Of a DNA stretch of 64,000 nt, positions 8,032-56,348 are shown one piece after another. Within the stretch, counting starts at the first letter, position 1; each line of letters begins with the position of its first letter. The position numbers and the translations under genes are program-made. The stretch spans positions 3,630 to 67,629 of the forward strand of contig JANQMV010000010.1 of the NCBI GenBank assembly GCA_028279865.1, written 5' to 3'. The DNA is from Candidatus Altimarinota bacterium. GTDB lineage: Bacteria > Patescibacteriota > Gracilibacteria > JANQMV01. Below the pieces are notes generated by a model. That model was given only the letters and a program-made list of their open reading frames with translations, had not been told where the DNA came from and made no database searches.

Positions 8032-9672
8032 ATGAATATTGTTGAAATCAGAAAAAAAGTCGACCAAATTGATGCTCAAATTGTGGAGTTAATCAAGCAA
8101 CGCTTAGAGCTTCTGCCAGAAGTCGTCGCCTACAAAAAAAAACATAATCTAGCTGTTTATCAAGAAAAACGTGAAAAAGTCATTTTCTCAAATTTAAACA
8201 AAATTTCACAGAAATTAGGTGTAAATTATGATTTAGTAAAAAATGTTTGGAAACTTTTAATTGAAGAGGCACATCAAATTGAACATGCGTTGTTGGAAAC
8301 TGAAAAATCAAAAAAAGTTGAACTTAAAGTTGATTTTCAAAAACTTAAGATTCAAAGAAAAAAGTTAGACTTAAAAATCCCTTTGTTTGATATTTTTCAG
8401 TCAATTTATGCTAATTATGATCATTTTTATTTTTTAGACTCTTTGGAAGAGGACTCTGAGTTATCACGTAAATCATATGTGGGCTTTGATCCTACTCATG
8501 TCTTTAAAGCAAAAAACCATGATTTTTTCATTGATGATCAAAAAGTGGAATGTGAAAACCCTCTGGAAAAATTAAAAGAAATTTTCCCTACGGATTTATT
8601 TAAAGATTCGGGCAGCTTTGTCGGCGGATTAGTAGGATACTTGGGGTATGAAGCCTTAAGATACAAAGAAGATCTACCTTATTTTAAAGATAATGTTGAA
8701 TGGAATGATTTTGAATTCGGGCTTTACTTGGATGGATTGGTCTTTGACCATGAGACAGGGGAGCTTGATTATTTTTATCTGAATGAAGATCGCAGCGAAT
8801 TAATTCAAGAGGTATTGAAAAATACTTTTGATCTTATGCCTCTTACCGTCAGTAGGGAAGATCACACTCCTTCCGATTCGGAATTTAAAGATGGTGTTAT
8901 AAAAGTTAAAAAACACATAGGACAAGGTGACATTTTTCAAGGAGTTTTGAGTCAAAGATTCAATTATCGAATTGAAGGATCTACTCTTTCTTTTTACAAA
9001 AAACTAAGGGAAATTAATCCTTCGCCTCATATGTTTTTTGTGAAATTTGGACAAAGAGAATTAATCGGTTCTTCTCCTGAGTTAATCGCGCGTGTTGAAA
9101 AAGGGGTGATCGAAACTTTCCCGATTGCAGGAACACGCAGTCGAGGAAAAAATAAAACTGAAGATCAAAAAATAGAAAAAGACCTCCTGAAAAATTCTAA
9201 AGAAAGGGCGGAACATATGATGCTCGTCGATATGGCTAGAAACGATCTGGGCAGGATTTGCGACTACGGCAGTATAGAAGTAAAAAAATTAATGTATACA
9301 AAAAAATATTCGCATGTCCAGCACATTGTCAGTAATGTACAAGGACGTTTGAGTGATGATGTGAATATCATTGATGCCGTACTGACACAAATGCCGATGG
9401 GGACAGTTTCGGGCTCACCCCGTTTGGAAGCGGTGAAAATTTTAAATGACCTAGAGCCAACAGTACGCGGTCCCTACGGAGGGGGAGTTGGTTTTTTATC
9501 TTTTTCTAGAGAATGTGTTTTTGCACTCATGATCCGTTCTCTTTTTTTAAATGGAAAAAAGGCTTACACTCAGGCAGGTGCTGGAATTGTTGACGAATCT
9601 GTAGCTGAACATGAATTAAAAGAAGTTCATAAAAAATCTCGCGTAGTCAAAAAAGCCTTGCATTCAGATTAA
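8032..9672 (+). CDS. Fusion of an AroQ-type chorismate mutase-like domain with a chorismate-utilising enzyme (TrpE/PabB-like component I)
   Basis: The N-terminal 90 aa match the CM_2 pattern (IRKKVDQIDAQIVELIKQRLEL...EKREKVI). The C-terminus has GDIFQGVLSQRF, SPELIARV, PIAGTRSRG, AEHMMLVDMARNDLGRI and RGPYGGGVGF. Confidence 0.8.
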   Translation: MNIVEIRKKVDQIDAQIVELIKQRLELLPEVVAYKKKHNLAVYQEKREKVIFSNLNKISQKLGVNYDLVKNVWKLLIEEAHQIEHALLETEKSKKVELKVDFQKLKIQRKKLDLKIPLFDIFQSIYANYDHFYFLDSLEEDSELSRKSYVGFDPTHVFKAKNHDFFIDDQKVECENPLEKLKEIFPTDLFKDSGSFVGGLVGYLGYEALRYKEDLPYFKDNVEWNDFEFGLYLDGLVFDHETGELDYFYLNEDRSELIQEVLKNTFDLMPLTVSREDHTPSDSEFKDGVIKVKKHIGQGDIFQGVLSQRFNYRIEGSTLSFYKKLREINPSPHMFFVKFGQRELIGSSPELIARVEKGVIETFPIAGTRSRGKNKTEDQKIEKDLLKNSKERAEHMMLVDMARNDLGRICDYGSIEVKKLMYTKKYSHVQHIVSNVQGRLSDDVNIIDAVLTQMPMGTVSGSPRLEAVKILNDLEPTVRGPYGGGVGFLSFSRECVFALMIRSLFLNGKKAYTQAGAGIVDESVAEHELKEVHKKSRVVKKALHSD

Positions 9673-24781: not shown

Positions 24782-24840
24782 GCGGGTATAGTACAGTGGC
24801 TAGTACGTGTCCCGTATTGCGGGACAACGCTGAGATTGAG
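24782..24840 (+). pseudogene. Truncated, rearranged copy of tRNA-Gly
   Basis: Bases 24782-24809 are identical to the first 28 nt of the intact tRNA at 25109. A hairpin, GTCCCGTATTGCGGGAC, replaces the anticodon region. CAACGCTGAGATTGAGTT then resembles CAACGCTAAGACACGAGTT of the tRNA. No T-arm or 3' acceptor strand follows. Confidence 0.5.
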
Positions 24841-24860
24841 TTTTACTAAATAGGGGATTC

Positions 24861-25118
24861 ATGGAAAAATTCACTGTTTACATTCTTAAAAGTCAGTTAC
24901 GTGGTAAGCATTATATCGGTTATACTGTTGATATAAAGAAAAGATTAAAAGAGCATAACGAAGGTTTGAATAGATCGACAAAATATGGTGTTCCTTGGGG
25001 TATCGTTTACACAGAGGATGGTTTTAGAACTAGGTCGGATGCAATCAAGAGAGAGCGAGAGATTAAAAGTTGGAAAGGAGGAATAAAGTTTAAGTTATTG
25101 TTTAACCAGCGGGTATAG
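24861..25118 (+). CDS. Small GIY-YIG nuclease-family protein (YhbQ/URI-domain type)
   Basis: 85 aa. FTVYILKS...HYIGYT...RLKEHNEG...REREIKSWKG. Its last 10 nt, including the TAG stop, overlap the tRNA-Gly acceptor stem. Confidence 0.85.
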   Translation: MEKFTVYILKSQLRGKHYIGYTVDIKKRLKEHNEGLNRSTKYGVPWGIVYTEDGFRTRSDAIKREREIKSWKGGIKFKLLFNQRV

Positions 25119-25183
25119 TACAGTGGCTAGTACGTGGCGTTGCCAACGCTAAGACACGAGTTCGATTCTCGTTACCCGCTCCA
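25109..25183 (+). tRNA. tRNA-Gly (anticodon GCC), CCA encoded
   Basis: Hand-folded cloverleaf. Acceptor GCGGGTA/TACCCGC, D-arm GTAC-AGTGGCTA-GTAC, anticodon arm TGGCG-TTGCCAA-CGCTA with GCC at 25142-25144, T-arm ACGAG-TTCGATT-CTCGT, then discriminator T and CCA. Confidence 0.9.
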
Positions 25184-25256
25184 AGCTCTTGAACAAGGAG
25201 TTTTTCGACGTGGTGAAAGGCTTGGACGGCAACCCCGCTAAGCGGAACAAAATGTG

Positions 25257-25269
25257 GTTACCCGCTCCA
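25257..25269 (+). repeat. Exact 13-nt copy of the tRNA-Gly 3' end (GTTACCCGCTCCA)
   Basis: Identical to 25171-25183, lying 73 nt downstream of the tRNA. Confidence 0.7.
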
Positions 25270-25459
25270 TGTAAGAGAAACTGCTTCTGAAGGCATTTTT
25301 TTGTTTAAGCTTAGTATTTATTGTCGCGTAGTTGTGAAGAAAATCTGCTTTTCGAAATGACATAATATTGATTAAGTTGCTTTTGTTTAGGGAAGAAATA
25401 TGTAAAAAAGACAAGAGGGCTAAATAATCAGGTTTGTAAGATGTTTTATCGCAAAGATA

Positions 25460-41540: not shown

Positions 41541-42164
41541 CTACCTTAAACTTGCAACGGCTTTTTTCCGATCTTCTGCTCCAAAAATATATGAACCTGC
41601 GACAAGCCAGTTTGCACCCGCCTCCTTGGCAATTTTTGCTGTCTCTCCATTGATTCCTCCGTCAATTTGAATGTCAATGTCGGGTCTGGCTTCACGAATC
41701 TTTCTGATTTTTCCAACAACTTCAGGAATAAATTTCTGACCACCGAATCCGGGAAAAACAGACATGATCAAAACATAATCAAGTTCATTCAAAATATTTT
41801 CAATAGCTTCGAATTCAGTATCCGGATTAAGTGCAATGCCGGCTTTCATGCCGTTGTCTTTAATTTTTTGAATAATTTCCAATGGATTATCAGTAACTTC
41901 TATATGAAAAGAAAGCATCACTGCTCCGGCTTTGGCAAAGTCTTCGATTAAGTCCTCAGGATTGGTTACCATCAGATGAGCATCAACGGGTAATTTGGTT
42001 TTCAGGCATTTTAACACCGGAGCACCAACTGTAAGGTTTGGCACAAAGTGTCCGTCCATTACATCGAAATGAATCCCATCAATATGTTCCTCCACTGATA
42101 CAATATCCTCATCCAGTTTCCCAAAATCAGCAGCGAGGATGGATGGTTGAATCTTAATTTTCAT
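41541..42164 (-). CDS. rpe: Ribulose-phosphate 3-epimerase
   Basis: KIQPSILAADF...HFDVMDGHFVPNLT...DGGIN, the canonical Rpe sequence. Confidence 0.9.
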   Translation of the reverse strand: MKIKIQPSILAADFGKLDEDIVSVEEHIDGIHFDVMDGHFVPNLTVGAPVLKCLKTKLPVDAHLMVTNPEDLIEDFAKAGAVMLSFHIEVTDNPLEIIQKIKDNGMKAGIALNPDTEFEAIENILNELDYVLIMSVFPGFGGQKFIPEVVGKIRKIREARPDIDIQIDGGINGETAKIAKEAGANWLVAGSYIFGAEDRKKAVASLR

Positions 42165-42196
42165 AGTTTTTAAGCTTTAAAAGAAAAAGGGCATGT

Positions 42197-42231
42197 TATT
42201 CTGAACGTAGTCTACGAAGTGAAGAATCTCT
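42197..42231 (-). repeat. Short hairpin repeat, subfamily GAGATTCTTCACT...TTCAGAAT
   Basis: The reverse complement reads GAGATTCTTCACT-TCGTAGACTACG-TTCAGAATAAC. Its termini match the copy at 49184-49227. Confidence 0.55.
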
Positions 42232-42286
42232 GGCAGTCCGTGTTGGAAATCCTTCTTCGTCGTACCTCCAAATTTTCATTGTTTAT

Positions 42287-42733
42287 CTAGCATTCACTTC
42301 CCGATCCGTTAATTACACAAATTCTGCGTTCATGCCTTTCTGCATTTGAAAACGGTGTAGAAACGAAAGCATCTGTAATTGATTTAGCTAACTCTGCTCC
42401 AATAATTCTTCCACCCATGACAAGTACATTTGCATCATTATGTTCTCTGGTAAGTTTTGCTTCGATTTCCGTATGACAGAGACCTGCTCTGATTCCTTTG
42501 ATTTTGTTGGCCATCATCGACATTCCAATTCCTGTTCCACAGATCAAAATTCCTAAATTTTCTTTAGCTTCAAGTGTGGCTTTACAAACGTCTTGAGCAA
42601 TTTGAGGGTAATCTACAGAATCTTTTGAATAACAACCTTTGTCCTCCACGGTTAAACCTTTGTCTTCCAAATATTTTTTCAAGCTTTCCTTAAGCTCAAA
42701 TCCGCCGTGATCAGCACCGATGATAATCCGCAT
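42287..42733 (-). CDS. rpiB: Ribose-5-phosphate isomerase B
   Basis: MRIIIGADHGGFELKE...ICGTGIGMSMMANK. Confidence 0.9.
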   Translation of the reverse strand: MRIIIGADHGGFELKESLKKYLEDKGLTVEDKGCYSKDSVDYPQIAQDVCKATLEAKENLGILICGTGIGMSMMANKIKGIRAGLCHTEIEAKLTREHNDANVLVMGGRIIGAELAKSITDAFVSTPFSNAERHERRICVINGSGSEC

Positions 42734-42765
42734 GGTAATTTATAATTTAAAATCTATTTTATATT

Positions 42766-42838
42766 CCTCACCTTTAGAAGTGAGTTAGGTGGAATGTGCC
42801 TAAATTAAAGATCTTCACCCCAACCTATCCTTGCTAAG
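42766..42838. repeat. Palindromic intergenic element (hairpin+TTAGGTGG ... CACCCCAACCT+hairpin)
   Basis: CTCACctttagaaGTGAG-TTAGGTGG, then CACCCCAACCT in inverted orientation. Same architecture as 56270-56348. Confidence 0.45.
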
Positions 42839-42849
42839 AGTAATTAATA

Positions 42850-44355
<1,506 letters not shown>

Positions 44356-44565
44356 TTATGAAAATCAATAAATATAGTTTTTGTCATGTTATCAAAGAAT
44401 TAAGTTAAAGACAAATTATTTTTTTGCAAATAATCTGTTTGATTTGTAATTAGTTTTTGTTAAACTCTTTTCCTAAGTTTTTATTTTAGTTCGCGAACTT
44501 GCTGAGCTAGAGTTAGCTTAGTAGGTTCCTTAACAGTATGATTTTTAAATTAGAGGAGGTATTGA

Positions 44566-44895
44566 ATGAAATTTAAGAAACTTGATCCTGGAAACTATGG
44601 ATCACAAATGCTTGACCCAAATGTTCCGGCACTTTTATTTATCAGAAATTCTACATGTAATGGAGTAAAGGCTATGTTGAATTTCTTAACGTCAACTTTT
44701 GTGAGTGAAGAATTTGGATCTATTTTATTGTTTGAAGTTGATGCTGATGACAAGGCTTATCTTGAATTTTTGAAAGATCAAAAAATTACTCATGTACCAA
44801 CAATTATTCTTTATAACGAAAGTTCTGAGATAGAAAGAATTGTTGGAGTTGTAACGATTGAAAGAATTAAGAAGTTTTTGAGACAAGTTTTTTAA
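44566..44895 (+). CDS. Thioredoxin-fold protein lacking a CxxC active site
   Basis: SD GGAGG. The C-terminal HVPTIILYNESSEIERIVG pattern is Trx-like. The active-site position reads STCNGV. Confidence 0.5.
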   Translation: MKFKKLDPGNYGSQMLDPNVPALLFIRNSTCNGVKAMLNFLTSTFVSEEFGSILLFEVDADDKAYLEFLKDQKITHVPTIILYNESSEIERIVGVVTIERIKKFLRQVF

Positions 44896-45011
44896 GATAA
44901 GTCCATTATACCAGCTTTTGTAGATTCTAAAAGCTTTTTAGCGCCTGACAAAAAACTATTGCTGATTATCCCAAAAGATTAAAAAATCTTACTTAAGTTA
45001 TGGATTTTTCT

Positions 45012-45046
45012 GGGGCAGGTCTGTATGACTGCCCCTCGTTTTTTGT
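45012..45046 (+). terminator. Rho-independent terminator
   Basis: GGGGCAG / CTGCCCC stem followed by TCGTTTTTTG. Confidence 0.6.
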
Positions 45047-45063
45047 TGTGCTTAATACTTGAT

Positions 45064-45435
45064 TTACAAAAGACCGAGTTTTTTCATTTCTTCATTAGGA
45101 TCCCAGACTTTTCCAGTGTCTTCATCTCGAAGCAAAGGTGCAAGTATTTTATTTTCTGGTATAATTTTTTTCATATAAGCAATTTCGTCAATGGAAGGAT
45201 TTCTTTGAAAAGTATCTCTAAAGCTAGACTCTAAGTCCTTTTGGCTTGGATAAAGAGTCTTTTCATAGCGAGTCACACAATCTCGGTTCCATTCTCCTGC
45301 TCTTTGACGAACTACTTTATCCACAACTTGCGCATATCCTTCATGCTGCAAGGGCATTTTGTCTATTTCAATTAATGTTGGTTCAATATCGTTTGTCATA
45401 CAGAAAGAATTGTAATAGTTTTTAAATTCTCGCAT
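45064..45435 (-). CDS. Hypothetical protein
   Basis: 123-aa ORF with non-repetitive composition and a TAA stop. No family recognised. Confidence 0.4.
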   Translation of the reverse strand: MREFKNYYNSFCMTNDIEPTLIEIDKMPLQHEGYAQVVDKVVRQRAGEWNRDCVTRYEKTLYPSQKDLESSFRDTFQRNPSIDEIAYMKKIIPENKILAPLLRDEDTGKVWDPNEEMKKLGLL

Positions 45436-45577
45436 TTATATTGTAAAATAGAAAGTAAAATTTTTCTAAAACTACAACAAAATTAATTATTGAACAAGTA
45501 AAAAGTATGACAATTTTGTTTTCTTGCTGATAAAACTAATCAGCTGTAAACTTTTCTCAGACTAAAAAAATACGAAA

Positions 45578-47026
45578 ATGAAAATTCATTTTATTGGAAT
45601 CGGGGGAATTGGGATTTCTGCTTTGGCGCGGATTTTTCGGGAAAGGGGGGATGAGGTGAGTGGTTCTGATGCGTCTAAATCTGCTTTGACGGATGATTTG
45701 GAAAAAATCGGAATAAAAGTTTTTGAAGGACATGCCGCAGAAAATGTACCTGATGATGTAGATAAAGTTATCTATACCGAAGCTATTCCAAAAAACAATC
45801 CTGAATACCAAAAATCGGAAAAGCTAGGTGTTCCTTTTTTGACTTATTTTCAGGCTTTAGGAGAATTTAGCAATGAATATCGTGTAATTGCAATTGCAGG
45901 AACACATGGAAAAACAACAACAACCGCAATGACTGCACTTGCTTTAATTGAAGGAGAAATTGATCCAAACGTAATTATCGGAACCAAAGTCGCCGAGTTT
46001 GAAAATCGAAATGTGAGAATCGGAAAAAGTGATTATTTAGTCGTAGAATCTTGTGAGTACCGAGAATCTTTTTTGAATTTAACACCACAAATTTTAGTGA
46101 TCACAAATATCGAAGCTGAGCATTTGGATTATTACAAAACCGAAGAAAATTATTTAAATGCGTTTAAAAAACTTTGTCAGAAAGTACCGAGAAGCGGATA
46201 TATAGTGACAATTGATGGGGATGAAAATGTGGATAAAGTTGTGGCGGGAGTGGAGGCGAATGTGCTTAAAGTACAAATTAAAAATGAAAAATTAAAAATT
46301 ATAAATGAACAAAAAATGCTGACTCAAGCAAACTTGGCGGAAGATTTCTCCACTGCACCCCGTACTAATTTAAATTCTGAGGATCGGGATTTCGGTCGAA
46401 ATGACGCAACTAAAAATATATTGAATCAGCATTCCAAACAACCAACTACTAACTACCAACTACCAACTCTTCAGGTTCCGGGAGAGCATTATAAGATTGA
46501 TGCAGCTTTGGCGATGGCTGTGGTAACTTTGAGTGGGGTGGAGGAGGAAGTTTTGAAGAAAGCGTTGGCGAGTTTTAAAGGAACGTGGAGACGCTTTGAA
46601 CGAAAAGGGGAGAAATATGGAGTACTTGTGATTGATGATTATGCGCATCATCCGACCGAAATTCAGGCGACTTTGCGTGGGGCACGTGAGATGTTTGATG
46701 AAAAGAAAATTATCTGTGTTTTTCAACCTCATCAATACTCTCGTACACGCTTGTTGTTCAATAATTTTGTTCATTCTTTTGTTGATTGTGATGAGGTAAT
46801 CATCCCAAACATCTATAAAGTTCGTGATACAGAAGAGGATGTAAAAGCAGTTAACGCTGCAATGCTCGTCAACGCTATTGACGACTATAGTGGAAATGCC
46901 ACTTTTGGAGACGGATTTGAAAATACCGTTAAATTGCTGGAAGAAAAACTCCAAGCCGGAGATGTGTTGATTACAATGGGAGCCGGGCCGGTGAATGAAG
47001 TGGGGGAAATGTATTTGGAAAGCTAG
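45578..47026 (+). CDS. murC: UDP-N-acetylmuramate--L-alanine ligase carrying an in-frame repeat insertion
   Basis: MKIHFIGIGGIGISALA, GTHGKTTTT, ESCEY, VPGEHYKIDAALA and DDYAHHPTE. About 65 extra codons (46271-46468) are made of repeat modules. Confidence 0.9.
   Translation: MKIHFIGIGGIGISALARIFRERGDEVSGSDASKSALTDDLEKIGIKVFEGHAAENVPDDVDKVIYTEAIPKNNPEYQKSEKLGVPFLTYFQALGEFSNEYRVIAIAGTHGKTTTTAMTALALIEGEIDPNVIIGTKVAEFENRNVRIGKSDYLVVESCEYRESFLNLTPQILVITNIEAEHLDYYKTEENYLNAFKKLCQKVPRSGYIVTIDGDENVDKVVAGVEANVLKVQIKNEKLKIINEQKMLTQANLAEDFSTAPRTNLNSEDRDFGRNDATKNILNQHSKQPTTNYQLPTLQVPGEHYKIDAALAMAVVTLSGVEEEVLKKALASFKGTWRRFERKGEKYGVLVIDDYAHHPTEIQATLRGAREMFDEKKIICVFQPHQYSRTRLLFNNFVHSFVDCDEVIIPNIYKVRDTEEDVKAVNAAMLVNAIDDYSGNATFGDGFENTVKLLEEKLQAGDVLITMGAGPVNEVGEMYLES
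46275..46407 (+). repeat. Repeat modules inside murC
   Basis: 46275-46299 (AAATTAAAAATGAAAAATTAAAAAT) is identical to 52203-52227. 46340-46407 has termini AAGATTTCTCCACT ... CGGTCGAAATGACGC, shared with 49231-49291 and 51680-51744. Confidence 0.8.
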
Positions 47027-47226
47027 TTTATAGCTTTCATCGCGGCTTTTCTGGAATCTGTCTTTGGATTAATTTGGGCATGACGTTTATTTCACAAGAG
47101 GTATAAAAAGATTACGCATCAAGTGTGGAATGACAGAAACACATTGCATCTAAAAGAGAAAAACGTTACTTTTTTCAAATTTTAGCGTAATCTAATTTAG
47201 TAATAATTTTCTAATCTATTTTTAAA

Positions 47227-47613
47227 ATGAAAAAAACAAACTTTTTTTTATCGCTTGCTCTGATGCTGATTTTTTTAAGTGCTTGTAATGATCCTGTTAA
47301 TCTTGAAAATAAAATTACTACTTTTCAGGAGTGTGTTCAGCAAGGTGGAAATATCGCAGAAAGTTATCCTCGACAATGTATTTTAAACGGAGAAACATAC
47401 GTAGAAGAAATTTCAGAAAATTATCAGACACTTTGCGAAAATTTAGATGGAACTTGGTTAGAAGAATCTCAAGAATGTGAAAATATTTCTCAAGAAGAAT
47501 GTGAAAATATTGTTGGGACTTTTGATGGGTGTGCTTCAGCATGTAGAAATGATCCGAACGCAATGATGTGTATTCAGGTTTGCGTTCCAGTCTGTAGTTT
47601 TAAAACAGAATAA
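47227..47613 (+). CDS. Small Cys-rich lipoprotein
   Basis: Lipobox FLSAC. 12 further Cys in 108 aa. Confidence 0.55.
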   Translation: MKKTNFFLSLALMLIFLSACNDPVNLENKITTFQECVQQGGNIAESYPRQCILNGETYVEEISENYQTLCENLDGTWLEESQECENISQEECENIVGTFDGCASACRNDPNAMMCIQVCVPVCSFKTE

Positions 47614-47694
47614 ATCAATTAATCTAATATACAAAAAGATATAATATTGTTTTAAACAGGGAAAAATGTTAGATTACTGCCCCAAATTATTTAA

Positions 47695-49053
<1,359 letters not shown>

Positions 49054-49112
49054 TCACCCGTGGGCGGGTAACTTGCACTAAAAAATAATAAATTATAAAT
49101 TACCAAAAGGAT

Positions 49113-49291
49113 TGTCATTCTGAGGAATTATCCTTTAAAAAATATAAAAGAGAATGACAAAGAATCTCTTTTGGATAGAGACAGAGATTCTTCACTGCTC
49201 CCGCAAACGGGATTCCTTCAGGATGACAAGAAAGATTTCTCCACTATATCATTCTTCGTTATACTACGAATGCTTCCGGTCGAAATGACGC
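49113..49291. repeat. Cluster of three short hairpin repeats in the obg-pth spacer
   Basis: 49113-49168 is in reverse orientation (GAGATTCTT...TCAGAATGAC). 49184-49227 reads GAGATTCTTCACT...TTCAGGATGAC. 49231-49291 reads AAGATTTCTCCACT...CGGTCGAAATGACGC. Confidence 0.75.
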
Positions 49292-49334
49292 TGTTCGACT
49301 AGGAACTAACGTCTAGTGGCTAATAGCTTCTCTT

Positions 49335-49865
49335 ATGAAATTAATTTTCGGTTTAGGAAATCTGGGGACAAAGTATGAAATTACACGCCATAATGTGGGG
49401 TTTTTGTTTTTGAATTATTTTGCGCAGAAATTTGATTTTCCAACTTCCAAGACAGAGTCAAAATTTAAGGCGGAAATTTCGGAGGGGAATTTGAATGGTG
49501 AGAAGGTTTTATTAATCAAGCCTTTGACGTATATGAATTTATCCGGAGAGTCTGTTCAGAAAATTCAGAGTTTTTATAAAGTGGCGAAAGAGGACATGAT
49601 TTTTGTTTATGATGATAAGGATATGGAGTTTGGAAAAATTCGTTTTCGGGAAGAGGGGAGTAGTGGCGGTCACAATGGGGTGAAGTCTTTGATTTCAGTT
49701 TTGGGAAAAGAATTTAAGAGAATTAAAATTGGTGTGGCAAATGATGATTTGCCAAAATACAGAGATACGGCAGATTTCGTTTTGGCGAAGTTTAAGAAGG
49801 AGGAATTGGATGAATTGCCGTTTGTTTTTGAAGATGCTTTGGAAATTATAAATGAGAAATTATAA
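49335..49865 (+). CDS. pth: Peptidyl-tRNA hydrolase
   Basis: LIFGLGNLGTKYEITRHNVGF...GGHNGVKS. Confidence 0.9.
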   Translation: MKLIFGLGNLGTKYEITRHNVGFLFLNYFAQKFDFPTSKTESKFKAEISEGNLNGEKVLLIKPLTYMNLSGESVQKIQSFYKVAKEDMIFVYDDKDMEFGKIRFREEGSSGGHNGVKSLISVLGKEFKRIKIGVANDDLPKYRDTADFVLAKFKKEELDELPFVFEDALEIINEKL

Positions 49866-49876
49866 ATTATTTTGAG

Positions 49877-50491
49877 ATGGCAAAGTCTTTAATTGTTTCG
49901 GTTGATGAATGTAAAAAGTATTTTCCGAAATATAACCCAAAGCATGCGGAAAAATATCATAAAGATTCTGCGAAATTGGCAGATAAGTGGTTTGAATACG
50001 CTGTAAAATTTATTCCTACTAAAGTTGTTTTATTAGCAGGAGGTTCTGCGTCTGGTAAAACTGAATATTTATCTCAACTTGTGCAGAAAATTAAAGAAGG
50101 GGGAATTTTTTACGATGGAACTTTGCCAAGTTACAAAGGAGCAGAAATAAAAATTAAAAATACCTTAAAATTTAACAGAAACCTTGAAATTCATTTTGTT
50201 CTTCCTGATGATATTAGGCGGGCTTATGTCGGTTTTTTGGAGAGAGAAAGGCAGTTTGATATTTCTCATTTTTATAGGACACATATTGATTCTCGCAAAA
50301 CAATTCTGGAAATTTGTAAAAGTGATTTTGAGGTAACTGTTAGGATTTTTGAAAACAAATTTTCAAAAACGGGAAAAACTATGTTTTTTGAAGAAATTGA
50401 GTTTTTTTCAAAAAAATCTAAAATTGATTATTTGGAGTCAATTCAATATAATGAAAGCACTTTAAAGGATATTATTTTATTTAATGATTAA
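49877..50491 (+). CDS. P-loop kinase/NTPase, zeta-toxin-like (tentative)
   Basis: Walker A VLLAGGSASGKTEYL about 55 aa from the N-terminus. Size and layout resemble zeta/AAA_33-type small kinases. Confidence 0.45.
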   Translation: MAKSLIVSVDECKKYFPKYNPKHAEKYHKDSAKLADKWFEYAVKFIPTKVVLLAGGSASGKTEYLSQLVQKIKEGGIFYDGTLPSYKGAEIKIKNTLKFNRNLEIHFVLPDDIRRAYVGFLERERQFDISHFYRTHIDSRKTILEICKSDFEVTVRIFENKFSKTGKTMFFEEIEFFSKKSKIDYLESIQYNESTLKDIILFND

Positions 50492-50759
50492 GAGGATTAG
50501 ATTAAAAGCATCAGTAAAAAACAACAAGCAGGTTGCTGCCTATAGCAAGGCTGTGCGTTCAGGTGCAAAAATTCAACATGTTGTTCCAAAAGATAAAAGT
50601 TGGGTGGTGAAAAGCACTAGCTCAATAAAAGCAACCAGAATATTTAATACTCAAAAGGAGGCTATTGATTATGGTAAAAAGGTGGCGAAAAATAACAAAA
50701 CGGATGTTATTGTTTATGGAAGAAATGGAAAAATCAGAGAAAGGACATCTTATAAATAA
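50484..50759 (+). CDS. DUF2188-family protein
   Basis: HVVPKDKSWVVKSTSSIKATRIFNTQKEAIDYGKKVAKNNKTDVIVYGRNGKIRE matches the DUF2188 pattern. Its start overlaps the upstream stop (ATGATTAA). Confidence 0.6.
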   Translation: MIKRIRLKASVKNNKQVAAYSKAVRSGAKIQHVVPKDKSWVVKSTSSIKATRIFNTQKEAIDYGKKVAKNNKTDVIVYGRNGKIRERTSYK

Positions 50760-50761
50760 AA

Positions 50762-52402
50762 TTGTTTCCCCAAGGATTTCTAGATAAATACCAGGCGCAA
50801 CTTTCGAAGGCTGATTTTGATCAGTTTCTTGAGTTTTGCCAAAAACCTTTGCGTAAAAGTATTCGAGTTAATACTTTGAAAATTTCAGTGGAAGATTTTC
50901 AAAAAATTGCTGAGGAAAAAGGTTGGGAATTAGAGCCGATTCCTTGGTGCGAAGAAGGCTTTTGGATTGAGCGTGAGAATCGGGATGAGCCACTGGGAAA
51001 TTCAATTGAGCATTTTTTGGGACTGTTTTATATCCAGGAAGCTTCTTCGATGATTCCACCGGAAATTCTAAATCCTCAGCTTGGAGAAAGAGTCTTGGAC
51101 ATGGCAGCTGCTCCGGGAAGTAAGACAACCCAACTTGCTGCCAAAATGCAGAATGAAGGAGTGTTGGCTTCAAATGAGCCGGTGGTGAAAAGGATAAAAG
51201 GCATGGTTTCAAACCTTGAAAGGTTAGGTGCAAGTTGCGTTGTGGTAAGTCGCAAAGATGGTCAGTTTTTCGGAGAAAATACACCTAATTTTTTTGATAA
51301 AATTTTACTTGATGCTCCATGTACTGGGGAGGGGACTGTGCGTAAAGATCCGAAGGCTCTTGAAAACTGGAGTCAGGAAAATATTGAGGGAATGGCACGT
51401 TTGCAGAAACAATTAATCAAGTCCGCTTTTGAAGCCTTGAAACCGGGAGGAGTGATGGTTTATTCGACGTGTACTTTGGCGAGAGAAGAGAATGAAGAGG
51501 TGGTGGAGTATTTGTTGGAAGAGTTTGAGGGGAATGCGGAATTGGTGCCTTTTTCTTTAAAGCCCCCTTTGAGGGGGGTGGGGGGTGTTGAGGATGGCGA
51601 AGTTCAAAGTGAAGAAAATTTCGTCATTCTGGCTTCTAGCGCAGCAAGAAAAAGTCCAGAATCTAAATCTCAAGTTGAGGAAGATTTCTCCACTACTCCC
51701 GCACAAGATAATTTAAAAGGAGCGGGATTCGGTCGAAATGACGCAGTATGTGGAATGATGACTATTTGGCCGCAGCTTTTTGATAGTGAGGGTTTTTTTG
51801 TGGCAAAAATTCGTAAGAACGAAAAAACAGAATTTAAAAAATTGAAAAAGAAAAAACATTTTACTTCTAAGTATCGGGTGCTGCGGAATAATGAGGTGGA
51901 GTTGATTCAGGAATATTTGGAGGAGCGTTTTGCTTATACTAGGAAATTGGTGAATCTCTTTAAACTTTATCAAAAGGAAAATCAGGTTTACTTTTGTCCG
52001 AAAGAAATTCGGGAAATTGATAAAAGAATTTATTTGGAAAGACGTGGTTTTCATGTTGGTGAATTTTTACACAAAAGAAGTGGGATCACAGAGTTTAAAA
52101 TCCATCATTTGGGGATAACGATTTTGGGAGATAAATTTACAAAAAATATTTTAAAATTAAGAGAAGGCGAGGTTAAAAAGTATCTTAAGGGGGAAAGTAT
52201 TGAAATTAAAAATGAAAAATTAAAAATGAAAAATGGGAGAACCCCCTTGAGGGGGCAGGGGGGTGTTGTTGATGATGAAGTTCAAAGTGATAATTTGAGT
52301 AATGGTGTTGTTGTTTTGAAATACAGAGGTGTTGTTTTGGGGAAAGGTTTGTTGAAGGGGGAGAATGTTAAGAATCAAATTCCGCGTTATTTGATTTGGT
52401 AG
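50762..52402 (+). CDS. rsmF: NOL1/NOP2/Sun-family rRNA m5C methyltransferase (RsmF/YebU-like) carrying two in-frame repeat insertions
   Basis: TTG start. FYIQEASSMIP, DMAAAPGSKTTQLA, LLDAPCTGEGTVRKDP, YSTCT and EGFFVAKIRK. Extra segments at about 51551-51750 and 52203-52290. Confidence 0.8.
   Translation: MFPQGFLDKYQAQLSKADFDQFLEFCQKPLRKSIRVNTLKISVEDFQKIAEEKGWELEPIPWCEEGFWIERENRDEPLGNSIEHFLGLFYIQEASSMIPPEILNPQLGERVLDMAAAPGSKTTQLAAKMQNEGVLASNEPVVKRIKGMVSNLERLGASCVVVSRKDGQFFGENTPNFFDKILLDAPCTGEGTVRKDPKALENWSQENIEGMARLQKQLIKSAFEALKPGGVMVYSTCTLAREENEEVVEYLLEEFEGNAELVPFSLKPPLRGVGGVEDGEVQSEENFVILASSAARKSPESKSQVEEDFSTTPAQDNLKGAGFGRNDAVCGMMTIWPQLFDSEGFFVAKIRKNEKTEFKKLKKKKHFTSKYRVLRNNEVELIQEYLEERFAYTRKLVNLFKLYQKENQVYFCPKEIREIDKRIYLERRGFHVGEFLHKRSGITEFKIHHLGITILGDKFTKNILKLREGEVKKYLKGESIEIKNEKLKMKNGRTPLRGQGGVVDDEVQSDNLSNGVVVLKYRGVVLGKGLLKGENVKNQIPRYLIW
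51563..51744 (+). repeat. Three repeat modules inside the rsmF-like gene
   Basis: 51563-51612 (CCCCCTTTGAGGGGGGTGGGGGGTGTTG...GAAGTTCAAAGTGA) is about 85% identical to 52242-52290. 51623-51663 is GTCATTCTGG...CCAGAATC. 51680-51744 is AAGATTTCTCCACT...CGGTCGAAATGACGC. Confidence 0.8.
52203..52290 (+). repeat. Second repeat insertion inside the rsmF-like gene
   Basis: A 25-nt exact match to murC 46275-46299, followed by a second copy of the CCCCCTTGAGGGGG-CAGGGGGGTGTTG module. Confidence 0.8.
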
Positions 52403-56269: not shown

Positions 56270-56348
56270 CCCCTTTATAAGGGGAGTTAGGTGGGGTAGT
56301 GTGCTTGAGTCACAGACCTCACCTAGCCCCTCCTTGGTAAGGCGGGGG
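56270..56348. repeat. Palindromic intergenic element (hairpin+AGTTAGGTGGGG ... CCTCACCTAGC+hairpin)
   Basis: CCCCTTTATAAGGGG-AGTTAGGTGGGGT, then a spacer, then CCTCACCTAGC-CCCTCCTTGGTAAGGCGGGGG. Lies between dnaE and dnaB. Confidence 0.6.

What the first reader, a model, noticed from the sequence alone, without database searches (positions are those of the whole stretch)
51551..51750. The rsmF-like methyltransferase has a three-module repeat insertion in frame
The conserved C-terminal motif here is MMTIWPQLFDSEGFFVAKIRK (compare E. coli RsmF FPQIYDCEGFFVARLRK). Just upstream of it the ORF reads PPLRGVGGVEDGEVQSE / ENFVILASSAARKSPES / EEDFSTTPAQDNLKGAGFGRNDA. These three stretches are encoded by a C5-TTTGA-G6 hairpin module (51563-51612), a GTCATTCTGG...CCAGAATC module (51623-51663), and the same AAGATTTCTCCACT...CGGTCGAAATGACGC element found in murC and in the obg-pth spacer. 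Several different repeat families have therefore stacked at one site in a coding region without breaking the frame.
Basis: seen in the sequence. Interest (0 to 1): 0.65.

Follow-up and report, generated by a model that had tools for sequence, protein, structure and literature searches.

The report
Stacked hairpin repeats inside rsmF gene
Three short, selfish hairpin-forming DNA repeats sit one after another, in frame, in a floppy surface loop of an otherwise intact rRNA methyltransferase of an uncultured coral-associated bacterium. This is a clear new example of something already known from Rickettsia and other bacteria.

Summary
ORF 50762-52402 is an intact RsmF-type 16S rRNA m5C methyltransferase. 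One loop has 67 residues, against a median of 15 in 69 homologues.

The extra ~190 nt (51560-51750) consists of three repeat modules:
- M1 is a C5/G6 hairpin followed by a G6TGTTG…CAAAGTGA tail. A second copy lies at 52242-52290.
- M2 is a CGTC-tagged REP-type hairpin with an enlarged loop. At least 3 further copies occur in the same metagenome.
- M3 is a CGTC-tagged bipartite element on the opposite strand. It has three exact-terminus copies in the window, where 0 are expected by chance.

The gene is under purifying selection: 38 synonymous against 14 non-synonymous codon changes versus a strain with a 96% identical core. AlphaFold folds the core confidently and leaves both inserts at low confidence.

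One orthologue has both sites empty. Other orthologues carry different elements, in both orientations, at the same two loops. A strain 95-96% identical across this region differs at all four element sites.

This is the known REP / Rickettsia-palindromic-element / Ssn-related-motif phenomenon, seen here in a candidate-phyla-radiation lineage and in mosaic form.

Two things go beyond the finding. M1- and M3-type elements are conserved almost to the nucleotide across many phyla. The window also encodes an 85-aa GIY-YIG nuclease embedded in a tRNA gene.

The parts
50762..52402 (+). rsmF-like gene: 16S rRNA (cytosine-C5) methyltransferase, 546 aa, stop TAG
   Evidence: Pfam finds RsmF_N (3.3e-27), RsmB-F (1e-48) and a PUA-like domain. 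E. coli YebU 2FRX matches at E 3.4e-96. Both catalytic Cys motifs (DAPC187, TC237) are invariant in 70 homologues. Against strain L001 there are 38 synonymous and 14 non-synonymous codon changes.
51560..51750 (+). Site-1 mosaic insert (M1 + M2 + M3), in the loop between strands ELVPF and MTIW of the methyltransferase domain
   Evidence: The loop has 67 residues against a median of 15 (range 8-54) in 69 homologues. Orthologue L002 is empty at this site. pLDDT is below 50 for residues 273-278 and 285-326.
51563..51612 (+). M1: C5-TTTGA-G6 hairpin followed by the tail G6TGTTG..GAAGTTCAAAGTGA
   Evidence: The copy at 52242-52290 is 86% identical. M1-type copies occur in L001 murC, L001 rsmF and L003 rsmF. 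DNA fold is -7.7 kcal/mol, z -1.9.
51620..51671 (+). M2: CGTC-tagged REP-type hairpin. Tag 51622-51625, 7-bp stem ATTCTGG/CCAGAAT, 23-nt loop, tail CTAAATCT
   Evidence: Fold is -6.4 kcal/mol, z -2.0. At least 3 more copies lie on other contigs of the same metagenomes. A short-loop sister, GTCATTCTGGCTTGTCCGGAATCTAAATCT, sits at site 2 of L001.
51682..51744 (-). M3: bipartite CGTC-tagged element. On the minus strand it reads GCGTC-ATTTC-GACCGAA-[TCCCGC..GCGGGA]-GTAGTGGA-GAAAT-CT
   Evidence: Three exact-terminus copies in the window against 0 expected. The same termini occur in at least 120 genome loci from many phyla. The inner hairpin is in the conserved register T-N-C[hairpin]T-Y-C.
52203..52235 (+). 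Site 2, part 1: period-7 A-rich string (AAAAATG/AAAAATT), read as IKNEKLKMKN
   Evidence: Copies lie at 46275-46307 and 49843-49875. Summed contig depth is 163-283 at a place where single contigs run at 10-15x, and a 37-nt contig has depth about 230-250.
52242..52290 (+). Site 2, part 2: second M1 copy, read in the same frame (PLRGQGGVVDDEVQS), in a loop of the PUA-like domain
   Evidence: The loop has 35 residues against a median of 10. pLDDT is about 53.
46342..46407 (-). M3 copy in frame in murC, in the same frame as in rsmF (EDFST...GRNDA)
   Evidence: MurC of L004 has 437 aa, against 482 aa in the window.
49233..49291 (-). M3 copy in the obg-pth spacer; 56 nt between the conserved termini, so not a multiple of 3
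48712..48738 (-). Short TGTC-tagged REP in frame in obg, read as SCDSLRMT

Best explanation
The insert is a mosaic of three non-autonomous hairpin repeat elements lodged in a permissive surface loop of a working RsmF methyltransferase.

The modules:
- M2 and M3 belong to the CGTC-tagged REP class. That class is the same as the Neisseria NTS/dRS3 repeats, Rickettsia RPE-4/-6 and the Ssn-related motifs.
- M1 belongs to a second widespread family: a C-run/G-run hairpin followed by GGGGGGTGTTG.

How it most likely works:
- Shown: such elements spread through the genome, are replaced and decay.
- Inferred: they do so through a single-stranded-DNA hairpin intermediate.
- Inferred: copies that fall inside genes persist only where the total added length keeps the frame, the element carries no stop, and the site is a solvent-exposed loop. 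Under table 25 (TGA = Gly) M1 is open in all six frames.
- Shown: the extra 50-odd residues are predicted without confident structure, and the enzyme core stays under purifying selection.
- Shown: the same two loops of RsmF have been occupied independently, by different elements and in both orientations, in several orthologues. Content differs between strains only about 4-5% apart.
- Inferred: these loops are recurrent landing or retention sites with fast turnover.
- Not established: the mobilising enzyme. An Ssn-type GIY-YIG single-strand nuclease is the leading candidate.
For: - Gene identity and integrity.
- Modules are repeats.
- Empty and differently filled orthologous sites: L002 is empty at both sites. 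L003 has an inverted M1 pair at site 1 and a canonical TGTC-ATTCCTGC-GAAG-GCAGGAAT-CTA REP at site 2. L004 has a REP in the forward orientation at site 2. L253 has an M1-type element at site 2.
- Fast turnover: strain L001 is 95-96% identical from the 3' part of murC to rsmF, yet differs at all four element sites. An L001-like allele is present in an independent coral metagenome.
- Disordered loops: mean pLDDT is 87.3 and pTM 0.87. Values below 50 occur only in 273-278 and 285-326, and values are about 53 at site 2.
- Class assignment: the CGTC tag and a stem starting with AT match PMC3733652. That paper lists CGTC REPs in frame in R. conorii genes, including clusters coding 43-82 aa.
- Partner enzyme in the literature: Ssn nucleases cut ssDNA beside CGTC-tagged hairpins (PMC11893778).
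- Same element in frame elsewhere: M3-type copies lie in frame in polA, queA, ribD, an rfbB-like gene, dnaX and comEC of other phyla.
- No recurrent neighbouring gene at 120 M3 loci.
Against: - No expression or proteomic data exist; no RNA run holds the stretch. Translation through the insert is therefore inferred.
- Folding energies of the single modules are modest (z about -2 for M1 and M2). They are not significant for the local M3 copies, whose inner hairpins are AT-eroded.
- M2 and M3 fail the strict definitions: REP stems of 8-9 bp with loops of 4-5 nt, and the published SRM search pattern.
- The extra M2 copies are on contigs of similar depth in the same metagenome. They are not proven to belong to the same genome.
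Confidence: 0.82

Rival explanations
1. The modules reach these loops by templated copying rather than by a transposition-like insertion. That copying would be gene conversion, or template switching at hairpins during replication or repair, from nearby copies. The neighbourhood 42-56 kb is a local pile-up that exchanges modules.
For: All copies found in the window lie between 42 and 56 kb. In strain L001 the same sites hold different modules while the flanks are 95-96% identical. Nucleotide identity between the two strains jumps from 77% to 89-96% around murC, which suggests recombination in this region. No target duplication is visible at the M3 copies.
Against: M2 copies lie on other contigs. 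M1- and M3-type elements occur genome-wide in many phyla, including single isolated copies. This rival concerns only the mobilisation step and is compatible with the main explanation.
Confidence: 0.3
2. The insert is an adaptive, lineage-specific protein extension, for example a binding surface for the ribosome or a partner. It is kept for its peptide and only secondarily resembles repeats.
For: It has been kept in frame in two strains. M1 and M3 are each read in the same frame in their two coding copies.
Against: The same DNA occurs in a non-coding spacer and in an unrelated enzyme. Content differs between 95-96% identical strains, and the closest empty orthologue lacks it altogether. It is predicted without confident structure. 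In other phyla the element is read in several frames and both orientations.
Confidence: 0.07
3. The insert is an assembly artefact: repeats mis-joined by the assembler.
For: Independent Logan assemblies break at the heptad string at 52203-52235, so the join at site 2 rests on 26 shared bases and on the original assembler.
Against: A Logan contig spans 50800-52231, covering all of site 1, with 0 differences. Both sides of site 2 continue the RsmF PUA domain in frame. A related allele with the same architecture comes from a separate JGI metagenome (L001) and another study (X4).
Confidence: 0.03
4. The insert is removed before the mature protein is made, as an intron, an intein or by translational bypass. 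Alternatively, the gene is a decaying pseudogene.
For: None direct. CPR bacteria are known for insertions in rRNA genes (my own knowledge, not tested here).
Against: No intein or intron family was detected (Pfam; Rfam). The frame is open with no stop. 38 of 52 differing codons are synonymous, and the catalytic residues are intact.
Confidence: 0.03

Closest known systems
CGTC-tagged REPs (Di Nocera, De Gregorio & Rocco 2013, BMC Genomics 14:522, PMC3733652). The class includes Neisseria dRS3 and Rickettsia conorii RPE-4/RPE-6.
   Same: Unpaired CGTC/TGTC tag, stem beginning with AT, and a short tail. Dispersed multi-copy elements with no adjacent transposase. They often occur as inverted pairs and are found in frame inside housekeeping genes, where clusters code up to 82 aa. 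Canonical members sit at the same rsmF loop in orthologues L003 and L004 and in the L001 spacer.
   Different: M2 has a 7-bp stem and a 23-nt loop, against 8-9 bp and 4-5 nt. M3 has only a 5-bp outer stem, an internal loop and a private inner hairpin of free sequence and length. The host is a candidate-phyla-radiation bacterium, a group not among the five phyla listed in that paper.
Ssn-related motifs (SRM/NTS) and the Ssn GIY-YIG single-strand nucleases (Chenal et al. 2025, Nat Commun 16:2388, PMC11893778)
   Same: The same tag-plus-hairpin design. The elements are directional. The paper reports a small (94-aa) single-domain GIY-YIG partner enzyme. The window encodes an 85-aa single-domain GIY-YIG protein with an adjacent TCCCG..CGGGA hairpin.
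   Different: M2 and M3 do not match the published SRM search pattern. The local GIY-YIG gene is not flanked by SRMs but is embedded in a tRNA-Gly gene. I could not test whether it belongs to cd10448. NTS are reported as rarely intragenic in Neisseria (2%).
Rickettsia palindromic elements (RPE). The citation 'Ogata et al. 2000' is from my own knowledge; PMC3733652 cites this work as refs 13 and 14.
   Same: Selfish palindromic DNA inserted in frame into functional genes and read through as extra surface peptide.
   Different: RPE-1 is a single, longer element. Here three short modules of at least two families are stacked, in a free-living or episymbiotic CPR lineage rather than an obligate intracellular alphaproteobacterium.
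Bacterial interspersed mosaic elements (BIMEs) of enterobacteria (my own knowledge; also mentioned in PMC11893778)
   Same: Mosaic arrays that combine REP hairpins with other short motifs.
   Different: BIMEs are extragenic, whereas this mosaic is translated.

Membership tests
RsmF / YebU 16S rRNA m5C methyltransferase | RsmF N-terminal domain, RsmB/F methyltransferase domain and PUA-like C-terminal domain, with both catalytic cysteines (PC and TC motifs) | tested here: met
   Pfam. 2FRX matches at E 3.4e-96. C187 and C237 are invariant in 70 homologues. Target specificity (C1407) was not tested.
CGTC-tagged REPs (PMC3733652) | Unpaired CGTC (or TGTC/CCTC) tetranucleotide at one end | tested here: met
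   M2 has CGTC at 51622-51625. M3 has GCGTC on the minus strand at 51740-51744.
CGTC-tagged REPs (PMC3733652) | Stem of 8-9 bp starting with A-T, T-A pairs, and a loop of 4-5 nt | tested here: not met
   M2 has a 7-bp stem ATTCTGG and a 23-nt loop. M3 has a 5-bp ATTTC/GAAAT stem, then an internal loop and a second hairpin. The feature is met by sister copies in L001 site 2, L003 site 2 and L001 6931-6958.
CGTC-tagged REPs (PMC3733652) | Dispersed multi-copy family with no dedicated adjacent transposase | tested here: met
   Searches show the copies. No gene family recurs in more than 4 of 120 M3 loci.
Ssn-related motifs (PMC11893778) | Match to HGTCWYN(0-2)YYVSBRHN(0-5)WNVSBRGN(0-2)RNCYNB | tested here: not met
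   Neither M2 nor M3 matches. There is one unrelated match in the window. Two matches form an inverted pair in the L001 murC-obg spacer.
Ssn-related motifs (PMC11893778) | Genome encodes a cd10448 single-domain GIY-YIG (Ssn), typically flanked by the motif | tested here: inconclusive
   An 85-aa GIY-YIG protein lies at 24861-25118 (PF01541, E 2.7e-13). Its closest solved relatives are UPF0213 proteins at E 1e-4. It is not SRM-flanked.
Rickettsia palindromic elements | Palindromic repeat inserted in frame in a gene that stays functional | tested here: met
   In frame, under purifying selection, core fold intact. Function itself was not assayed.
Intein or self-splicing intron | Splicing domains, or a structured intron RNA | tested here: not met
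   No such Pfam hit. No Rfam hit at E<=5 beyond two snoRNA chance matches.

The most novel reading that the evidence does not exclude
The M3-type long form consists of a CGTC tag, a 5-bp AT stem, a fixed asymmetric internal loop and a hairpin of free sequence. The M1-type hairpin may be of the same kind. Both could be substrates of a very widespread, still unassigned single-strand-DNA enzyme that writes and erases these modules at particular sites, including a small set of protein loops.

In this genome the driver could be the 85-aa GIY-YIG protein at 24861-25118. It travels as a minimal cassette inside tRNA genes, next to a TCCCG..CGGGA hairpin like the inner hairpins of the local M3 copies.

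Facts that leave this open:
- The M3 termini are identical in at least 120 loci from about 14 phylum-level groups.
- 64 of 107 distinct interiors form a hairpin in exactly the same register, against about 2 in shuffles.
- There is no hit in 2.9 million viral contigs.
- There is no linked gene.
Probability: 0.15. Interest if true: 0.8.

Novelty: new member of a known kind. Interest (0 to 1): 0.4.

Why it matters
For annotation, proteins of candidate-phyla-radiation bacteria carry repeat-derived loops that should not be read as new domains or as frameshift errors.

For evolution, one gene gives a dated series. It runs from an empty site, to an M1 hairpin shared by three orthologues, to M3 shared by two strains, to M2 intact in only one. 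It also shows the same two loops being re-used in distant orthologues. This makes the gene a convenient natural system for measuring insertion, replacement and decay rates of hairpin repeats.

For mechanism, CGTC-type repeats had no known mobilising enzyme until Ssn nucleases were described in 2025. A genome with active turnover and a small GIY-YIG gene is a reasonable place to test that link.

Tried and rejected
I used metagenome contigs laid on the stretch instead.
- Rfam: nothing relevant.
- Literature search for the terminus sequences themselves: only primer coincidences.
- A linked transposase or other gene at 120 M3 loci: none. The best cluster covers 4 loci, and a four-helix-bundle (23S IVS-type) protein appears in only 3.
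- A crude GIY-YIG motif scan of loci L005-L244: nothing credible.
- The exact M1-plus-full-tail pattern in metagenome contigs: 0 hits, although L001 contains it, so that collection does not hold L001.
- M3 in viral contigs: 0 hits.
- RNA runs: none.
- A perfect-stem scan for GTCAT hairpins in the window: no better than shuffles (3 against 4.3), so too strict to be useful.
- P0058 'DFSTT' at site 2 looked like M3 at the protein level, but the DNA (GACTTTTCTACAACT) does not match, so I dropped it.
- Period-7 A-rich strings among M3 loci: only one other case (L044), so no general link.
Full report
**The gene.** ORF 50762-52402 (+, 546 aa, stop TAG) carries three Pfam domains: the RsmF N-terminal domain (E 3.3e-27), the RsmB/F methyltransferase domain (E 1e-48) and the PUA-like C-terminal domain. 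It matches E. coli YebU/RsmF (PDB 2FRX) at E 3.4e-96. In an alignment of 70 homologues the SAM-binding and both catalytic cysteine motifs (DAPC187, TC237) are invariant.

**The insert is real and large.** Between the strand ELVPF and the strand MTIW the protein has 67 residues. In 69 homologues the median is 15 and the range 8-54. The next two longest loops belong to its own closest relatives. This loop corresponds to YebU residues about 275-287. A second loop, in the PUA-like domain, has 35 residues against a median of 10. AlphaFold2 with the 70-sequence alignment gives mean pLDDT 87.3 and pTM 0.87. The only segments below 50 are residues 273-278 and 285-326 (site 1). The three 10-residue blocks covering about 481-510 (site 2) average 68, 53 and 54.

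**Each module is a repeat.**
- M3: AGATTTCTCCACT-N30-45-GGTCGAAATGACGC occurs three times in the window: murC 46342-46407, the obg-pth spacer 49233-49291 and rsmF 51682-51744. It occurs 0.00 times in 100 shuffles.
- M1: there is a second copy in the same gene (52242-52290, 86% identical). The tail pattern occurs twice against 0.00 expected.
- M2: there is no second copy in the window. When the Logan contigs of three coral-metagenome runs that hold the window were laid on the insert, three other contigs of similar depth (10-15x) carried M2, with 2-11 mismatches over 44-66 nt.
- The 33-nt period-7 string at 52203-52235 reaches a summed depth of 163-283 where single contigs run at 10-15x. Several contigs end in it, so it is a high-copy repeat.

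**What the modules are.**
- M2 reads CGTC-ATTCTGG-[23 nt]-CCAGAAT-CTAAATCT.
- On the minus strand, M3 reads GCGTC-ATTTC-GACCGAA-[TCCCGC...GCGGGA]-GTAGTGGA-GAAAT-CT.
- Both therefore carry the unpaired CGTC tag and the AT-initiated stem that define the CGTC-tagged REPs of Di Nocera et al. 2013 (PMC3733652). That class includes Neisseria dRS3 and R. conorii RPE-4/-6. It is reported inside genes, where clusters code 43-82 aa.
- The supplement of that paper lists peptides such as VIPAKAGI, SFPRKRES and DSRFRGND. It also lists tag-outward dimers, for example in MurB. The M2 (+) and M3 (-) pair here has the same layout.
- Canonical short members of the class sit in close relatives. L001 site 2 has GTCATTCTGGCTTGTCCGGAATCTAAATCT, with the same stem and tail as M2. 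L003 site 2 has TGTCATTCCTGCGAAGGCAGGAATCTA. L004 site 2 has a forward copy. The L001 murC-obg spacer has an inverted pair.
- The same class was renamed NTS / Ssn-related motif in 2025, when the 94-aa GIY-YIG nuclease SsnA was shown to cut single-stranded DNA beside it (PMC11893778).
- M2 and M3 themselves fail the strict stem and loop sizes and the published SRM search pattern. I therefore file them as divergent relatives, not canonical members.
- M1 is a different family (C5-loop-G5/6, 1-3 nt, G6TGTTG). The hits have G+C from 0.27 to 0.70, are often inverted pairs, and often lie beside GTCATT-type hairpins.

**History at the site.** Five orthologues give a series.
- L002 (about 63% identical by BLASTP) is empty at both sites.
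- L004 has a short unrelated loop at site 1 and a forward REP at site 2.
- L003 (about 69%) has an inverted M1 pair at site 1, and a reverse REP plus a G7TGTT remnant at site 2.
- L001 has the M1 hairpin, a decayed or absent M2, and M3 at site 1, plus a reverse REP at site 2.
- More distant RsmF proteins also carry repeat-like peptides in these two loops. The M1-type element at site 2 of L253 was confirmed at the DNA level.
- A look-alike in P0058 was rejected at the DNA level.

**Turnover.** L001 is syntenic with the window and is 95-96% identical from the 3' part of murC to the end of rsmF. The two nevertheless differ at every element site:
- murC: the window has the heptad string plus M3, while L001 has a heptad-like string plus an M1-type hairpin with tail.
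- obg-pth spacer: about 240 nt against 121 nt.
- rsmF site 1.
- rsmF site 2.

An L001-like allele is present in a fourth coral metagenome from another study.

**Selection.** Outside the inserts, rsmF differs from L001 at 56 of 1347 positions. 38 codons change synonymously and 14 non-synonymously, so the gene is under purifying selection.

**Assembly.** A Logan contig covers 50800-52231 with no difference. Site 1 is therefore not an assembly artefact. The join at site 2 lies in the high-copy string, but it is supported by the in-frame continuation of the PUA domain.

**Frame tolerance.** Under table 11 the modules are open in 3 of 6 frames (M1), 4 of 6 (M2) and 2 of 6 (M3). All stops in M1 are TGA, so under table 25 it is open in all six frames. 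The local M3 lengths between the conserved termini fit a multiple-of-3 rule: 63 and 60 nt in CDS, 56 nt in the spacer. In-frame M3-type copies elsewhere measure 46-58 nt and use several frames and both orientations. The constraint therefore acts on the whole insert.

**Beyond the finding.**
The 120 loci come from Clostridia, Bacteroidota, Planctomycetota, several Patescibacteria groups, Actinomycetota, Chloroflexota, Acidobacteriota, Alpha-, Gamma- and Deltaproteobacteria, Bdellovibrionota, Spirochaetota, Rhodothermota-like taxa, Marinimicrobia and Altimarinota. My estimate is that about one hit would be expected by chance.
- Of 107 distinct interiors, 64 form a hairpin of at least 5 bp placed 2-3 nt inside each terminus, against 2.1 in shuffles. 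There are 82 different stem 6-mers.
- No gene family recurs beside the element, and no hit was found in 2.9 million viral contigs.
- Copies lie in frame in real polA, queA, ribD, rfbB-like, dnaX and comEC genes of other phyla.
- Earlier notes of this scan describe the same class in other CPR genomes and pointed me to the Ssn paper.

**A candidate enzyme.** Prompted by those notes, I scanned the window and found an 85-aa single-domain GIY-YIG protein at 24861-25118 (PF01541, E 2.7e-13).
- It lies directly upstream of tRNA-Gly(GCC) at 25109-25183.
- It is preceded by a broken copy of that tRNA in which the hairpin TCCCGTATTGCGGGA replaces the 5' anticodon stem and loop.
- Homologues in a Peregrinibacteria genome and in Bacteroidales have the same layout with tRNA-Gly or tRNA-Asp. 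In the latter the anticodon-loop TGTCA followed by a hairpin makes a CGTC-like tag plus hairpin.
- I could not test whether this protein is an Ssn (cd10448) or whether it acts on M2 and M3.

**Verdict.** This is a well-resolved new instance, in a CPR lineage and in mosaic form, of the known in-frame REP/RPE phenomenon. The mobilisation mechanism remains inferred.

Noticed in passing
window 24782-25271: An 85-aa single-domain GIY-YIG gene (24861-25118) is embedded at tRNA-Gly(GCC) (25109-25183). Upstream lies a broken tRNA copy whose anticodon arm is replaced by the hairpin TCCCGTATTGCGGGA. The tRNA 3' end is repeated at 25258-25271. Homologues in Peregrinibacteria (L245) and Bacteroidales (L246, L251) show the same cassette at tRNA-Gly or tRNA-Asp, sometimes in tandem. 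It looks like a minimal tRNA-gene-invading element.
   Followed up: partly
window 46275-46307, 49843-49875, 52203-52235: A period-7 A-rich string (AAAAATG/AAAAATT) is a high-copy repeat in the metagenome (summed depth 163-283 where single contigs run at 10-15x). It breaks the Logan assemblies. It is translated as IKNEKLK in murC and rsmF, and it supplies the last residues and the stop codon of pth. A similar string heads an ORF in a Pirellulales contig (L044 4254-4281).
   Followed up: partly
window 41542-52401 against L001 1541-11547: Nucleotide identity between the two strains is 77% over rpe-rpiB-guaB, 89% in the 5' part of murC, and 95-96% from the murC insert onward. This suggests a recombination boundary at or near the repeat insert.
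   Followed up: no
L125-L244 (metagenome contigs): The M1-type element (A)ATTC-CCCCCTTGAGGGGGG-NNN-GGGGGGTGTTG is widespread in contigs with G+C from 0.27 to 0.70. It often occurs as an inverted pair 20-60 nt apart. In low-GC contigs it often lies directly beside GTCATT/AATGAC hairpins. I found no description of this family.
   Followed up: partly
L055, L061, L088, L054, L036, L098: M3-type elements lie in frame in an rfbB-like dehydratase, polA, queA, ribD, dnaX and comEC of Bacteroidales, Saccharibacteria, Collierbacteria and Altimarinota genomes.
   Followed up: yes
window 48712-48738: obg carries a short TGTC-tagged REP in frame (SCDSLRMT). The same element is present in L001 obg (8073-8096).
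   Followed up: partly
window 46445-46470: murC also holds an ACTACTAACTACCAACTACCAACT string (TTNYQLPT), conserved in L001. It may be yet another module of the mosaic.
   Followed up: no
window 56270-56348 and 42766-42838: Inverted pairs of M1-like hairpins (CCCCTTTATAAGGGG-AGTTAGGTGGGG ... CCTCACCTAGC-CCCTCC..GGCGGGG) lie between dnaE and dnaB and between guaB and rpiB. They have the same design as the inverted M1 pair inside rsmF of L003.
   Followed up: partly
L060 (Peptoniphilus sp. KCTC 25270), L121 (Acidobacteriaceae): Some genomes carry local arrays of M3-type elements with extended, family-specific flanks: 5 copies in about 4 kb in L060, and 3 copies at 119-nt spacing in L121.
   Followed up: no
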